Positions 32,770-34,544 of a DNA stretch of 64,000 bases are shown in pieces. Source of the stretch: a virus (taxonomy: Duplodnaviria; Caudoviricetes); IMG/VR virus record IMGVR_UViG_3300033074_001459, positions 207 through 64,206 of that record; one strand, given 5' to 3'. Both the position numbers and the translations under genes were made by a program. The notes under the pieces are model-generated. The model searched no databases, was not told the origin of the DNA, and worked only from the letters and a program-made list of their open reading frames with translations. The first letter of the stretch is position 1. Every line of letters starts with the position of its first letter.

Positions 32770-32988
32770 CTAAAAAATCGATTTTTGGGTCAGATCCTCG
32801 GCCTGTCTTACCAGGTAGCAAACAGCGTCAAAGTCCAGAGAATCGTCGCTATTCCACAGTTTCACCAGCCGTCGCAGCAGCTTGAATGCCTCCTGTCTCT
32901 CCCTCAGTAAGGCGTTCACCTGGGTGCTCAGGTTTTGGCTATCCTTCTTCAATCGACGCACAGTTGCAGAAATCTCAGGCGCTTTCAT
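32770..32988 (-). CDS. Hypothetical coiled-coil protein
   Basis: GGAG RBS before ATG 32988. Confidence 0.55.
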   Translation of the reverse strand: MKAPEISATVRRLKKDSQNLSTQVNALLRERQEAFKLLRRLVKLWNSDDSLDFDAVCYLVRQAEDLTQKSIF

Positions 32989-33214
32989 TCTCGTTCTCCG
33001 ATTCACGTAATACTCTGCACAGTCCGTTCATTCGTTTGTCCAAGGCATCTACGTTTTGCGCCACTGGGGCAAGGCAAGCGGACAACGCCCTGAGCATAGG
33101 GGTGTCTGGAAGTTCTTGGATTTGGTGGTCAATGTTGCGCAAGCACTGCTTCAGTTGCGCTATCAGGTGCCGTAGGTTCCCCTCTACTTCGTCGGCCAGC
33201 GGATTGATGTTCAT
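32975..33214 (-). CDS. Hypothetical coiled-coil protein
   Basis: AAAGGG RBS immediately after the ncRNA cassette. Confidence 0.55.
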   Translation of the reverse strand: MNINPLADEVEGNLRHLIAQLKQCLRNIDHQIQELPDTPMLRALSACLAPVAQNVDALDKRMNGLCRVLRESENENESA

Positions 33215-33234
33215 ATACGATACACCCTTTTCAA

Positions 33235-33258
33235 AAGTGCCGGTCTTTCCCGGCTGTC
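33235..33258 (-). repeat. 24-bp direct repeat copy 2 (GACAGCCGGGAAAGACCGGCACTT), hairpin
   Basis: Identical to 33440-33463; stem GCCGG/CCGGC with loop GAAAGA. Confidence 0.95.
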
Positions 33259-33262
33259 TGCT

Positions 33263-33352
33263 TGGTGGGACCCTCTCGATTTGAACGAGATCCAGAAGTG
33301 CTGTCCCGAGCCCGTAACTGCCCAGGTCCCTCTGGTTTTTCCTCTAGGTCCC
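33263..33352 (-). ncRNA. tRNA-like RNA B (90 nt, encoded CCA, no D-stem)
   Basis: Acceptor GGGACCT/GGGTCCC-A-CCA; T-arm TCTCG-TTCAAAT-CGAGA; long central arm CCAGAGG/CTTCTGG plus CCTGGGC/GCTCGGG. Confidence 0.8.
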
Positions 33353-33355
33353 GTA

Positions 33356-33435
33356 TGGTGGAGCTTGGCGGGATTCGAACCCGCATTGTGTCCGCCGGTT
33401 TGTCTTCCGTAACCTTCAGAGCCGGCCCAAGCCCC
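33356..33435 (-). ncRNA. tRNA-like RNA A (80 nt, encoded CCA, G3.U70, no D-arm)
   Basis: 8-bp acceptor GGGGCTTG/CAAGCTCC-A-CCA; T-arm GCGGG-TTCGAAT-CCCGC; central helix GCCGG/CCGGC. Confidence 0.8.
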
Positions 33436-33439
33436 GTGT

Positions 33440-33463
33440 AAGTGCCGGTCTTTCCCGGCTGTC
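33440..33463 (-). repeat. 24-bp direct repeat copy 1 (GACAGCCGGGAAAGACCGGCACTT), hairpin
   Basis: Identical to 33235-33258. Confidence 0.95.
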
Positions 33464-33698
33464 AGATACACGTTGGCCTGTTTAGCTGAGCGTCGTTTAC
33501 AGGCTCCAGGGCTATGCTCTCCGGGGGACAAGCCCGGCATACTCAGCAGACCCTACTGCCCGGGTATATCAGCCGAGCAATCGTTTGCGCAGGGACAGTC
33601 TCCACCGCTTGAAGTTGATGAACCCGATTTCAGCACCGGCGGCAGCCAGCCACTGAAACCGGAGCCACCACTCCAGTTCCTCCAGGTATTCAGCCGAA

Positions 33699-34403
33699 TT
33701 AGGGCTGAAAGAATTTGGCGGTCACCTTGGTCCCTGCGTCAATCTTGTAGAGTTCGCAGAACCGAGTGACAGATTCGTCAGACAGCCCTACGCTCTGAAG
33801 CCAGGCAACGAACTTAGGTCCGTCTACCGAGTTAGCCAGACCTCGGCACTTGGTAAGGATCAGCTTGACCCGGTTCACGTCGTGCCCGATGTAACCGGCG
33901 ACAGCTTCAGGGTTGTGGATGTCGATCTCCACTTCCTCTTGCTGTGCTTGCACCTCTACGGTTTCCAGGTTCTTGATGGAGTCGAGAATCTCATCCATCC
34001 TTACCTGAAGGTACTCGAAGATGCTGCGGACAGTCTCCTGGAGGCTATCAATGCGATTCGATAAGCTGTTGTGATTATCGGACAAATGCTCGACAAGACT
34101 GTCGATTCGTGCAGATACTCCTGCCATATCCCCCTGGCCGAAAGTCGGGCCCTGCACTTCGTCGGTAGACGGGTCATCCAGTCCTCCTAATCCGTCGATG
34201 TCATCCAGACCACCGAGGCCCATATCCTCAGCAGCGGGCTTAGTCTCCTTCTTGTCTTTCTTGCCCTTCTTGCTGGTGCCGTTGCTGGCTTCGTTGAGAT
34301 ACTGGTCCAGTTCATTCAGGGCTGCAGGGTCGAGGTTACCCGCCCCCTCCAGGGTGTCCATTGCGTTACCGGCGGGTTTCTGAGTCTTAGGCGCTCGTGG
34401 CAT
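33699..34403 (-). CDS. Hypothetical acidic protein, 234 aa, ending CCC TAA
   Basis: GAAAGGA RBS before ATG 34403; DDIDGLGGLDD low-complexity segment plus coiled coil. Confidence 0.65.
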   Translation of the reverse strand: MPRAPKTQKPAGNAMDTLEGAGNLDPAALNELDQYLNEASNGTSKKGKKDKKETKPAAEDMGLGGLDDIDGLGGLDDPSTDEVQGPTFGQGDMAGVSARIDSLVEHLSDNHNSLSNRIDSLQETVRSIFEYLQVRMDEILDSIKNLETVEVQAQQEEVEIDIHNPEAVAGYIGHDVNRVKLILTKCRGLANSVDGPKFVAWLQSVGLSDESVTRFCELYKIDAGTKVTAKFFQP

Positions 34404-34544
34404 TGTCGATTCCTTTCTTATTTGAAAACAATTCAAGGCGGCTCATATTTAAGTTGCCCCGATTAGCTGGGAGGAAGTTCAGGATACCTGACTTCGGTGA
34501 TACTGAGAATAGGCTGGTAATACTACTAGCTTGATAGGGATAAT

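What the first reader, a model, noticed from the sequence alone, without database searches (positions are those of the whole stretch)
33235..33463. Repeat-bracketed cassette of two tandem non-canonical tRNA-like RNAs leading the replication genes
Seen on the minus strand, 5' to 3': 24-nt hairpin repeat, 4 nt, tRNA-like A (80 nt, CCA), 3 nt, tRNA-like B (90 nt, CCA), 4 nt, identical 24-nt repeat, then the RBS of the genes leading to the LexA-like protein and PolA. A and B differ in sequence but both keep an acceptor stem, a canonical T-arm, A73 and encoded CCA. Both lack a D-stem. Established: RNase P, RNase Z, CCA enzyme, EF-Tu and SmpB read the acceptor/T-arm half, and tRNA-like structures occur in tmRNA, Y RNAs and plant viruses. 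Inference: this is a processed phage tRNA-mimic system. It could act as a decoy for anticodon nucleases, SmpB or RelA, as an amino-acid donor for a non-ribosomal ligase, or as processing punctuation of the replication transcript. I know of no named family with this layout.
Basis: partly seen in the sequence, partly recalled or inferred. Interest (0 to 1): 0.92.

Follow-up and report, generated by a model that had tools for sequence, protein, structure and literature searches.

The report
Phage tRNA mimics behind widespread hairpin
An uncultured phage carries two tRNA-shaped RNA genes that cannot decode, in the spot where its relatives keep ordinary tRNA genes, and the "private" repeat around them is one copy of a very common phage hairpin that Rfam and the papers I searched do not describe.

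Summary
On the minus strand an exact 24-nt hairpin repeat brackets an 80-nt unit A and a 90-nt unit B. Each unit has an intact acceptor stem, a canonical T-arm, A73 and encoded CCA, but no D-stem and no usable anticodon arm. ARAGORN and Rfam call neither a tRNA.

Unit A aligns end to end with the tmRNA model as a tRNA-like domain without the mRNA part (26 bits, below the 47-bit threshold). It has the G3.U70 alanine pair. Relatives (40-61% PolA identity) carry ordinary tRNA-Arg(UCU) and tRNA-Ile(UAU) genes, or other tRNA-like units, in the same slot.

The main correction concerns the repeat. Its 23-nt core (TGACAG, 5-bp stem, GARAGA loop, CAC) occurs in several hundred fetched phage, prophage and bacterial loci. 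The stem covaries. About 10% of copies lie 1-10 nt upstream of a tRNA or a non-decoding tRNA-like gene. Others lie just upstream of start codons or in the tail of standalone HEARO/omega-RNA elements.

I found no homologs of A or B, so expression, processing and function remain inferred. Best reading: processed, non-decoding acceptor-arm mimics placed behind a portable RNA "punctuation" hairpin.

The parts
33440..33463 (-). Hairpin motif copy 1: canonical family core with CTG on its 5' side. Unit A starts 6 nt after the family core ends, which is 4 nt after the 24-nt repeat.
   Evidence: The same 21-22-nt core was found in more than 120 viral and more than 120 bacterial loci.
33356..33435 (-). 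Unit A: 80-nt tRNA-like RNA gene. It has an 8-bp acceptor stem with G3.U70, a central hairpin, a 9-nt linker, a T-arm, A73 and CCA. It resembles a tmRNA tRNA-like domain without the mRNA part.
   Evidence: tmRNA RF00023 matches end to end at 26 bits, E 1.3e-6, below the gathering score of 47. ARAGORN is negative.
33263..33352 (-). Unit B: 90-nt tRNA-like RNA gene. It has a 7-bp acceptor stem, a 10-nt unpaired D-region containing GG, a 14-bp two-part long arm with an 8-nt apical loop, a T-arm, A73 and CCA. The 5' acceptor strand is repeated internally at 33330.
   Evidence: (MFE -37.1 kcal/mol, z -2.7). No Rfam or ARAGORN hit.
33235..33258 (-). Hairpin motif copy 2. It starts 4 nt after the CCA of unit B and lies 20 nt upstream of the ATG of the next gene.
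   Evidence: The distance to the start codon falls within the 16-27-nt peak of the family.
32975..33214 (-). First gene downstream of the cassette (79 aa, no family), followed by the LexA-like wHTH gene and PolA.
33699..34436 (-). Upstream gene (245 aa). The 235 nt between it and motif copy 1 show no promoter, no terminator and no significant fold.
   Evidence: z -1.6.

Best explanation
Units A and B are genes for stable, non-decoding tRNA-like RNAs that occupy this phage lineage's variable tRNA slot. They are transcribed as part of the long minus-strand early/replication operon. The host tRNA machinery then cuts them out: RNase P at each 5' end, followed by 3' trimming back to the encoded CCA. 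Each keeps only the acceptor/T-arm half of a tRNA. The rest is replaced by a well-paired arm capped by the shared GUUACGG loop. Unit A carries the alanine identity set (G3.U70, A73, CCA) in a tmRNA-like frame, so AlaRS probably charges it. The two RNAs most likely act through the acceptor end, either as mimics or decoys for host factors that read that half of a tRNA, or as carriers. The flanking hairpins are copies of a portable, strand-specific 23-nt RNA motif that phages, prophages and some IS-derived elements place at the start of RNA units. It most likely works as a processing, stability or insulation signal. What is shown: the anatomy, the synteny with tRNA genes, the size of the motif family, its stem covariation and its position relative to tRNA 5' ends. 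What is inferred: transcription, processing, charging and function.
For: Anatomy: both units have fully paired acceptor stems, canonical T-arms, A73 and CCA, and their replaced bodies are well paired rather than decayed. Unit A aligns with both ends of the tmRNA model. Synteny: the same intergenic slot holds tRNA-Arg(UCU) plus tRNA-Ile(UAU) in L002, and tRNA-Arg in L003, L008 and L009. L006 and L009 carry further tRNA-like units there. In L008 the identical hairpin lies 2 nt before tRNA-Arg. Motif family: 231 unique canonical contexts have sharp conservation boundaries. Stem pair 4 stays paired in 103 of 105 variant copies, including 4 U.G pairs. ARAGORN tRNAs within 400 nt are on the motif's strand in 57 of 58 cases. 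An acceptor-plus-T-arm unit starts 1-10 nt after the motif in 24 of 231 canonical and 17 of 188 variant contexts, against 0-4 at control offsets. About half of these units are missed by ARAGORN. L361 carries at least five motif copies, four of them each followed after 2 nt by a different non-canonical tRNA-like unit with the same acceptor stem. L618 has a cloverleaf whose anticodon loop is replaced by a tetraloop. No promoter or terminator separates the cassette from its operon.
Against: No homolog of A or B was found in any source: close relatives, IMG/VR, one metagenome scan, and 4.3 Mb of motif-bearing loci. Their structures therefore rest on single-sequence folds with modest z-scores. There are no expression data. 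Unit A has an 8/5 rather than a 7/5 acceptor/T helix and lacks the UUCGAC part of the tmRNA D-loop analogue. The phage encodes no recognisable RNA-handling enzyme that would point to a partner. A mechanical 109-aa ORF (33211-33540) overlaps the cassette, though it has no Pfam match. The hairpin's function is unknown. 125 of 231 contexts (54%) fit none of the three recognised classes.
Confidence: 0.55

Rival explanations
1. Unit A specifically mimics the tmRNA tRNA-like domain. Once charged with alanine it engages SmpB and EF-Tu and enters stalled ribosomes, but it has no tag template. It would therefore either block host trans-translation or rescue ribosomes without tagging phage proteins for degradation. 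Unit B would be a second, SmpB-independent mimic.
For: tmRNA is the only Rfam family that matches, and it matches at both ends. Unit A has G3.U70, A73, CCA and a GGAC element before the T-arm. From my own knowledge of the trans-translation literature, not checked here: tRNA-like-domain-only fragments of tmRNA can be alanylated and can accept a peptide in vitro.
Against: The score is below Rfam's threshold. The UUCGAC half of the conserved D-loop analogue is missing, the GGAC is displaced by 5 nt, and the acceptor stem is 8 bp. Nothing links unit B to tmRNA. No binding test was possible.
Confidence: 0.15
2. A and B are tRNA-scaffolded antisense or guide RNAs in the manner of the P1/P7 C4 and P4 CI RNAs. 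RNase P would release them, and the shared apical loop would pair with a common target.
For: Both units share the apical GUUACGG on otherwise different bodies. In L361, paralogous tRNA-like units keep one acceptor stem but differ in the body. C4 and isrK RNAs lie between two motif copies in L183.
Against: The complement CCGTAAC occurs at chance frequency in the phage (3 and 5 copies outside the cassette itself, against about 4 expected per strand). No complementarity longer than 11 nt was found. There is no C4 hit in the window. Host targets could not be searched.
Confidence: 0.12
3. A and B are decaying relics of the tRNA genes that relatives still carry, kept only by chance.
For: They sit in the tRNA slot, are not callable as tRNAs, and have no detectable homologs.
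Against: Decay should break stems at random. Here the acceptor stems (8 and 7 bp) and both T-arms have no mismatch, CCA and A73 are retained, and the new arms are well paired, including 14 bp in B. Neither unit resembles the Arg or Ile tRNAs of the relatives. Similar non-decoding units recur behind the same motif elsewhere.
Confidence: 0.1
4. The feature is chiefly a DNA-level mosaic joint. The 23-nt motif is a short conserved sequence at which phages recombine, and A and B are simply cargo brought in between two such joints.
For: Groups of loci share the sequence upstream of the motif and diverge immediately after it, for example L033 against L102 and L036 against L029. The motif is present in L008 and the window but absent from L002 and L003. 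Motif-ORF-motif-ORF arrays exist in L174.
Against: There is no target-site duplication signal and no shared neighbouring recombinase or nuclease. Strand specificity relative to transcription, tolerated U.G pairs and the fixed 1-10-nt spacing to tRNA 5' ends point to an RNA-level role. This reading is compatible with A and B being functional.
Confidence: 0.06

Closest known systems
tmRNA tRNA-like domain (Rfam RF00023)
   Same: Unit A shares the GGGG start, G3.U70, a T-arm of near-consensus sequence and the CUCCACCA end. It has no D-stem, and a helix leaves where the anticodon stem would be.
   Different: Unit A has no mRNA-like domain, tag frame or pseudoknots: 326 model positions are replaced by 30 nt. 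The score is 26 bits against a gathering score of 47. The acceptor stem is 8 bp and the UUCGAC element is absent. Unit A is therefore not a member of the family.
Phage tRNA gene clusters, including the stable tRNA-like 'species 1 and 2' RNAs of the T4 tRNA region (the T4 RNAs are recalled from my own knowledge, not checked here)
   Same: The genomic slot is the same as for ordinary tRNA genes in relatives. The units are tandem, closely spaced and have encoded CCA.
   Different: A and B have no D-stem and no 7-nt anticodon loop, and ARAGORN and Rfam do not recognise them.
C4 antisense RNA of P1/P7 and CI RNA of P4 (Rfam RF01695)
   Same: These are small phage RNAs released from a longer transcript by RNase P (from my own knowledge). 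A C4 RNA lies near motif copies in L183.
   Different: There is no C4 hit in the window, and no in-phage target for the loops of A or B.
Theta ribozymes, minimal HDV-like ribozymes flush against phage tRNAs (PMC10879173)
   Same: A small structured RNA element within a few nucleotides of phage tRNA ends, in the sense orientation, also found alone in non-coding regions, and thought to serve end maturation.
   Different: Theta ribozymes abut the tRNA 3' end and have an HDV-type fold, which as I recall it is a nested double pseudoknot. About 90% of those with a predicted host come from phages of Bacteroidota. The motif here is a single 23-nt hairpin on the 5' side, too small for that fold, and is found across many phyla.
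PeSL promoter/stem-loop cassettes of T4-type phages (PMC2839356, PMC4122927)
   Same: Short conserved motifs at gene starts that coincide with mosaic joints and modular shuffling (titles and abstracts only).
   Different: PeSLs are composite promoter-terminator motifs specific to one phage group. The motif here has no promoter-like -10 element, is found across phyla, and abuts tRNA 5' ends too closely to act as a promoter.
HEARO / IscB omega-RNA (Rfam RF02033)
   Same: The identical hairpin lies 30-50 nt after the 3' end of the Rfam HEARO model in standalone multi-copy omega-RNA elements of Contendobacter, Oligoflexus, Thiotrichales and others.
   Different: 114 of 115 viral contexts, and the window itself, have no HEARO RNA. 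The searched supplementary files of the OgeuIscB structure paper do not contain the motif. The hairpin is therefore a separable module, not a marker of omega-RNA.

Membership tests
tRNA (RF00005) | Cloverleaf with a D-arm and a 5-bp anticodon stem carrying a 7-nt loop | tested here: not met
   ARAGORN finds 0 genes in the window. There is no Rfam tRNA hit at the gathering score or at E<=5. The folds show no D-stem and apical loops of 4 to 8 nt.
tRNA (RF00005) | 7-bp acceptor stem stacked on a 5-bp T-stem with a UUCRANY-type T-loop, a discriminator base and CCA | tested here: met
   Unit B is 7/5. Unit A is 8/5 (or 7/5 with one extra pair). Both end in ACCA.
tmRNA (RF00023) | Score at or above Rfam's gathering threshold | tested here: not met
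   Unit A scores 26 bits against 47. Unit B has no hit.
tmRNA (RF00023) | mRNA-like domain with a resume codon, tag frame and pseudoknots | tested here: not met
   Only 30 nt lie between the two halves of the tRNA-like domain. No tag-like frame with a stop codon is present in A or B (read).
tmRNA (RF00023) | G3.U70 alanine identity pair and an ACCA end | tested here: met
   Unit A only.
tmRNA (RF00023) | SmpB binding and alanylation | not testable with these tools
   This needs biochemistry. Unit A retains only part of the conserved D-loop-analogue sequence.
C4 antisense RNA (RF01695) | Match to the family model, and loops complementary to sites in the same phage | tested here: not met
   No hit in the window. 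Complementary heptamers occur at chance level.
HEARO / omega-RNA (RF02033), considered for the hairpin | A roughly 210-nt pseudoknotted scaffold upstream of the hairpin | tested here: not met
   No HEARO hit in the window. The 235 nt upstream of copy 1 have no significant fold.
Theta / HDV-like ribozyme, considered for the hairpin | An HDV-type ribozyme fold whose cleavage site abuts a tRNA 3' end | tested here: not met
   The conserved block is 23 nt with sharp boundaries. It is coupled to downstream 5' ends, not to upstream 3' ends. The published descriptor itself was not run.
Structured hairpin motif TGACAG-stem-GARAGA-stem-CAC (unnamed family defined here) | Conserved flanks and loop, with a 5-bp stem that covaries | tested here: met
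   Both window copies are canonical. Pair 4 is paired in 103 of 105 variant copies. Further compensated variants occur in L006, L156, L243 and Microbulbifer.

The most novel reading that the evidence does not exclude
The 23-nt hairpin is a universal, portable start-of-RNA signal read by a host factor conserved across bacterial phyla, for example as a minimal RNase P-type microhelix or as a binding site on the transcription or translation machinery. Phages and IS-derived elements would use it to launch a large, so far unrecognised class of non-decoding tRNA-like RNAs. A and B, the four-unit array in L361 and the tetraloop cloverleaf in L618 would all belong to this class, acting as acceptor-end decoys or carriers during infection.
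Probability: 0.25. Interest if true: 0.85.

Novelty: new variant of a known kind. Interest (0 to 1): 0.7.

Why it matters
Phage tRNA genes are usually explained by codon usage or by escape from anticodon nucleases. RNAs that keep only the acceptor/T-arm half cannot serve either purpose by decoding. They would point to a different use of tRNA mimicry in infection, such as titrating or exploiting RNase P, the CCA-adding enzyme, AlaRS, EF-Tu, SmpB, or defence toxins that attack acceptor ends.

Separately, a 23-nt hairpin shared by phages of many phyla, by cultured phages such as mEp390, Pokken and Medea1, and by omega-RNA elements has no Rfam family. I also found no description of it. It is small enough for direct reporter and biochemical tests. 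If it is a host-independent processing or stabilising signal, it would be of practical use for expressing RNAs, and it would improve phage annotation. About half of the tRNA-like units that follow it are missed by ARAGORN (8 of 17 called in the variant set).

Tried and rejected
- **Homologs of A and B.** None found by PolA-based synteny in IMG/VR (single protein and alignment), by one metagenome scan, by exact 3'-end and apex-to-T-loop patterns, or by blastn/nhmmer against 4.3 Mb of fetched loci. The apex pattern returned only ordinary tRNAs, where GTTACGG lies in the D-region, at about the chance rate.
- **Two-piece (permuted) tmRNA made from A plus B.** Weak hit only (16 bits, E 0.24). The strands do not pair across the two units, whereas A pairs with itself.
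- **Antisense targets for the shared apex.** At chance level.
- **Hairpin as a sigma-70 promoter.** The TGACA resembles a -35 box, but no -10 element is conserved, and many tRNAs start 1-6 nt after it.
- **Hairpin as a CRISPR-type solitary repeat.** No arrays exist. Only L052 shows a 60-nt period.
- **Hairpin as a transposon end.** No excess of flanking duplications. L008's 8-nt duplication is a single case.
- **A common neighbouring gene.** The largest protein cluster covers 19 of about 240 loci and is a CI-type repressor.
- **Intrinsic terminator.** Only about 6% of copies are followed by a terminator-like hairpin within 50 nt.
- **Hammerhead core.** The CUGA and GAAA elements are in the wrong topology (read directly from the sequence).
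- **Literature search by sequence.** Nothing relevant. AcrIIIA1-associated t(m)RNA fragments turned out to be host RNAs.
- **Last viral scan.** A motif followed by an alanine-type 3' end gave one genuine motif-linked hit among 118 rows.

Full report
**1. What is in the window.** The window is almost the whole of a 64,206-bp IMG/VR virus record that CheckV rates complete. It has no cultured relative: its PolA is at most about 24% identical to any GenBank phage PolA. On the minus strand the described layout is exact.
- Hairpin repeat copy 1: 33463-33440.
- Spacer of 4 nt.
- Unit A: 33435-33356.
- Spacer of 3 nt.
- Unit B: 33352-33263.
- Spacer of 4 nt.
- Hairpin repeat copy 2: 33258-33235.
- Then a Shine-Dalgarno-like stretch and a 79-aa ORF, a LexA_DNA_bind protein, and a 965-aa PolA with an N-terminal UDG-like domain.

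The same strand carries an SNF2 helicase upstream. Downstream it carries RecA-like, DnaB-like, Toprim, Mre11/SbcD-like, SbcC-like and RusA genes. The cassette therefore lies inside the early/replication operon. No sigma-70-type promoter or intrinsic terminator is predicted on that strand between 33000 and 33900.

**2. The two units.**
- Unit A folds into an 8-bp acceptor stem with G3.U70, one linker base, a 5-bp stem carrying a weakly structured 23-nt loop, a 9-nt linker and a canonical T-arm. It ends in A73-CCA.
- Unit B has a 7-bp acceptor stem, ten unpaired bases that include GG, and a long arm of 7 + 7 bp with an internal loop and an 8-nt apical loop. One base and a canonical T-arm follow, and it ends in A73-CCA.
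- Both apices contain GUUACGG.
- ARAGORN finds no tRNA or tmRNA in the window. Rfam finds nothing at gathering thresholds.
- With relaxed thresholds the only meaningful hit in 64 kb is tmRNA, over exactly unit A. Model positions 1-374 are matched with 326 internal positions replaced by 30 nt (26 bits, E 1.3e-6, gathering score 47).
- The alignment covers the GGGG start, part of the D-loop analogue, the T-arm at near-consensus sequence, and the CUCCACCA end.
- Unit A is therefore shaped like a tmRNA tRNA-like domain but is not a tmRNA. Unit B matches no family.
- A permuted two-piece tmRNA reading fails.
- A mechanical 109-aa ORF overlaps the cassette but has no Pfam match.

**3. Relatives.** The 5.8-billion-protein collection holds only six PolA relatives, at 40-61% identity. 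IMG/VR and the metagenome scan added none. Their contigs show that the intergenic slot between the 245-aa-type gene and the small genes before PolA is a variable tRNA slot.
- L002 carries tRNA-Arg(UCU) and tRNA-Ile(UAU).
- L003 carries tRNA-Arg(UCU).
- L008 carries tRNA-Arg(UCU).
- L009 carries tRNA-Arg(UCU), preceded by a further tRNA-like unit with G3.U70.
- L006 has a 75-nt acceptor-plus-T-arm unit that the tRNA finders miss.

None of these units resembles A or B in sequence. A and B thus sit where tRNA genes belong, but I have no homologs with which to test covariation in them.

**4. The repeat is not private.** In L008 the same hairpin (22 of 24 nt identical) lies 2 nt before tRNA-Arg.
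- An exact search for the 21-22-nt core returned at least 120 IMG/VR contigs and at least 120 GTDB species genomes.
- The bacterial hits come from Pseudomonadota, Bdellovibrionota, Clostridia, Bacteroidota, Planctomycetota, Omnitrophota, Spirochaetota, Actinomycetota, Verrucomicrobiota and candidate phyla.
- Across 212 unique full-length contexts, conservation starts abruptly at (C)TG and ends at CAC. Only a weak pyrimidine/T bias follows.
  - When the fourth stem pair changes, the partner changes with it: C-G 61, U-A 33, A-U 5, U.G 4, and two mismatches, so 103 of 105 stay paired.
  - The third loop base is often G instead of A: 91 G and 4 U among the variant copies.
- Further compensated stems occur in L006, L156, L243 and Microbulbifer.
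- This is a real, strand-specific hairpin with sequence-specific loop and flanks. The tolerated U.G pairs favour an RNA.
- It matches no Rfam family in the window or in 35 motif-bearing loci. A literature search by sequence found nothing relevant.
- Cultured carriers include mEp390, Pokken, Medea1, ESP2949-1 and Proteus, Aeromonas and cyanobacterial phages. In most listed records the motif lies in unannotated DNA.
- It is rare in E. coli, occurring in 5 of 5,426 genomes.

**5. Where the hairpin sits.** Of 231 unique canonical contexts:
- 38 lie in the tail of HEARO/omega-RNA elements. These are nearly all in bacterial genomes and are multi-copy. Four of them were checked with Rfam, and there the motif sits 30-50 nt after the end of the HEARO model.
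- 24 are followed within 1-10 nt by an acceptor-plus-T-arm unit, against 0-4 at five control offsets.
- 44 are followed by a Shine-Dalgarno sequence and a start codon, with distances peaking at 16-27 nt.
- 125 fit none of these classes. Some of them precede unannotated structured regions.

ARAGORN tRNAs within 400 nt are on the motif's strand in 57 of 58 cases. Ten start 1-6 nt after it, whereas distances from upstream tRNA 3' ends are scattered. Among 188 variant contexts, 17 are followed by such a unit (control 0), and ARAGORN recognises only 8 of them.

The non-canonical units come in several kinds.
- Units without an anticodon arm (L041).
- Units without a D-arm (L052/L225, L194).
- Long conserved forms (L050/L200).
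- A cloverleaf with a tetraloop in place of the anticodon loop (L618).
- In L361, at least five motif copies, four of them each followed after 2 nt by a different tRNA-like unit sharing one acceptor stem. L361 as a whole gave no Rfam hit at the gathering score, tRNA included.

The window's arrangement, hairpin-A-B-hairpin-gene, is therefore one instance of a recurrent design and not a unique bracketed cassette. Copy 2 fits the "hairpin before a start codon" class, 20 nt from the ATG.

**6. What the hairpin is not.**
- No protein family is shared by its neighbourhoods.
- There is no flanking duplication signal.
- There is no conserved -10 element.
- There are no repeat arrays.
- Terminators follow only rarely.
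- It is too small for an HDV-like or hammerhead fold.
- Theta ribozymes, the closest published tRNA-flanking phage element, abut tRNA 3' ends and come mostly from phages with predicted Bacteroidota hosts.

Mosaic breakpoints fall exactly at the motif in several groups of loci. It may therefore also act as a recombination joint, like the PeSL motifs of T4-type phages. In mEp390 and in an E. coli prophage it lies after the repressor gene, at a nutL-like position. This keeps a boxB-like antitermination role open.

**7. Mechanism, with what is shown and what is inferred.** Shown: the anatomy, the synteny, the motif family and its covariation, and its coupling to downstream 5' ends. Inferred from established tRNA biology:
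- The operon transcript is cut by RNase P at the 5' ends of A and B.
- The 3-nt and 4-nt trailers are trimmed back to CCA.
- Unit A, with G3.U70 and A73, is a plausible AlaRS substrate, as minihelices and tmRNA are.
- Neither RNA can decode.

The most likely role is mimicry of the acceptor half, as a decoy or a carrier. A tmRNA/SmpB-directed role for A is the most specific version of this. I found no in-phage antisense target for the shared apex and no phage enzyme that suggests a partner.

**8. Verdict.** The interpretation as a processed tRNA-mimic system is plausible but untested. The "repeat-bracketed cassette" must be re-read as two copies of a widespread hairpin with no Rfam family and no description that I could find. 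A and B are a new variant of known kinds (tRNA-like and tmRNA-like RNAs). The hairpin family and its link to non-decoding tRNA-like genes are the more surprising result, and they can be tested directly.

Noticed in passing
L361:1500-2520 (IMGVR_UViG_3300036713_000542): At least five copies of the hairpin (stem variant). Four are each followed after 2 nt by a different 85-97-nt non-canonical tRNA-like unit, and all four share the acceptor stem GCGCGYC. The locus as a whole gave no Rfam hit at the gathering score, tRNA included.
   Followed up: partly
L009:2963-3037 and L006:157-231: Relatives of this phage carry further tRNA-like units that the tRNA finders miss, in the same slot. The L009 unit has G3.U70 and lies upstream of tRNA-Arg. 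The L006 unit has a CGCAAAU T-loop, and a stem-compensated hairpin variant lies about 50 nt upstream of it.
   Followed up: partly
L008:50-120: An 8-nt direct duplication (TGGAATCG, the 5' end of tRNA-Arg) flanks a roughly 45-nt segment that ends with the hairpin. It looks like an insertion next to the tRNA gene. No such signal is seen family-wide.
   Followed up: partly
L154:1815-2200, also L147, L170, L034: Standalone HEARO/omega-RNA elements with similar hairpins at both ends (possible TnpA sites) carry the 23-nt hairpin between the omega-RNA scaffold and the right end. In L154 the next ORF is a secreted-type protein, not IscB.
   Followed up: partly
L267:2525-2640 (phage mEp390), L049, L076, L119, L127, L362, L368: A recurrent unannotated structured RNA follows the hairpin directly in lambdoid prophages. 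It starts ACAACAGG and closes with a long-range helix. It has no Rfam family.
   Followed up: no
L050 and L200; L052 and L225: Two pairs of homologous non-canonical tRNA-like RNAs (about 100 nt and about 82 nt) follow the hairpin in unrelated contigs and show compensatory changes. They are probably further uncatalogued families.
   Followed up: no
L268:2025-2368 (Stenotrophomonas phage Pokken): 344 nt of unannotated sequence lie between the hairpin and the annotated tRNA-Ile/Tyr/Pro cluster of this N4-like phage.
   Followed up: no
window:33386-33403 (minus strand, unit A bases 33-50) and L238:1524-1541: An 18-nt exact identity (24 nt with one indel) links unit A's helix 3' strand plus linker to an intergenic site just before a ribosome-binding site in a gammaproteobacterial contig. 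Unit A's central arm also resembles a hairpin-motif copy with an insertion.
   Followed up: no
window:33330-33324 and 33352-33346: The 5' acceptor strand of unit B (GGGACCU) occurs twice. A 68-nt alternative with the same T-arm and 3' strand is therefore possible, though it leaves the 7-bp base of the long arm unpaired.
   Followed up: partly
L183:6771-6954: isrK and C4 antisense RNA genes (Rfam hits) lie between two hairpin copies in a Microbulbifer prophage. In this genome a degenerate, stem-compensated copy precedes the hairpin directly.
   Followed up: no
window:29677-32574: The PolA carries an N-terminal uracil-DNA-glycosylase-superfamily domain. It is conserved in the six known relatives, which form a rare phage group found mainly in wastewater or digester-type samples.
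   Followed up: no
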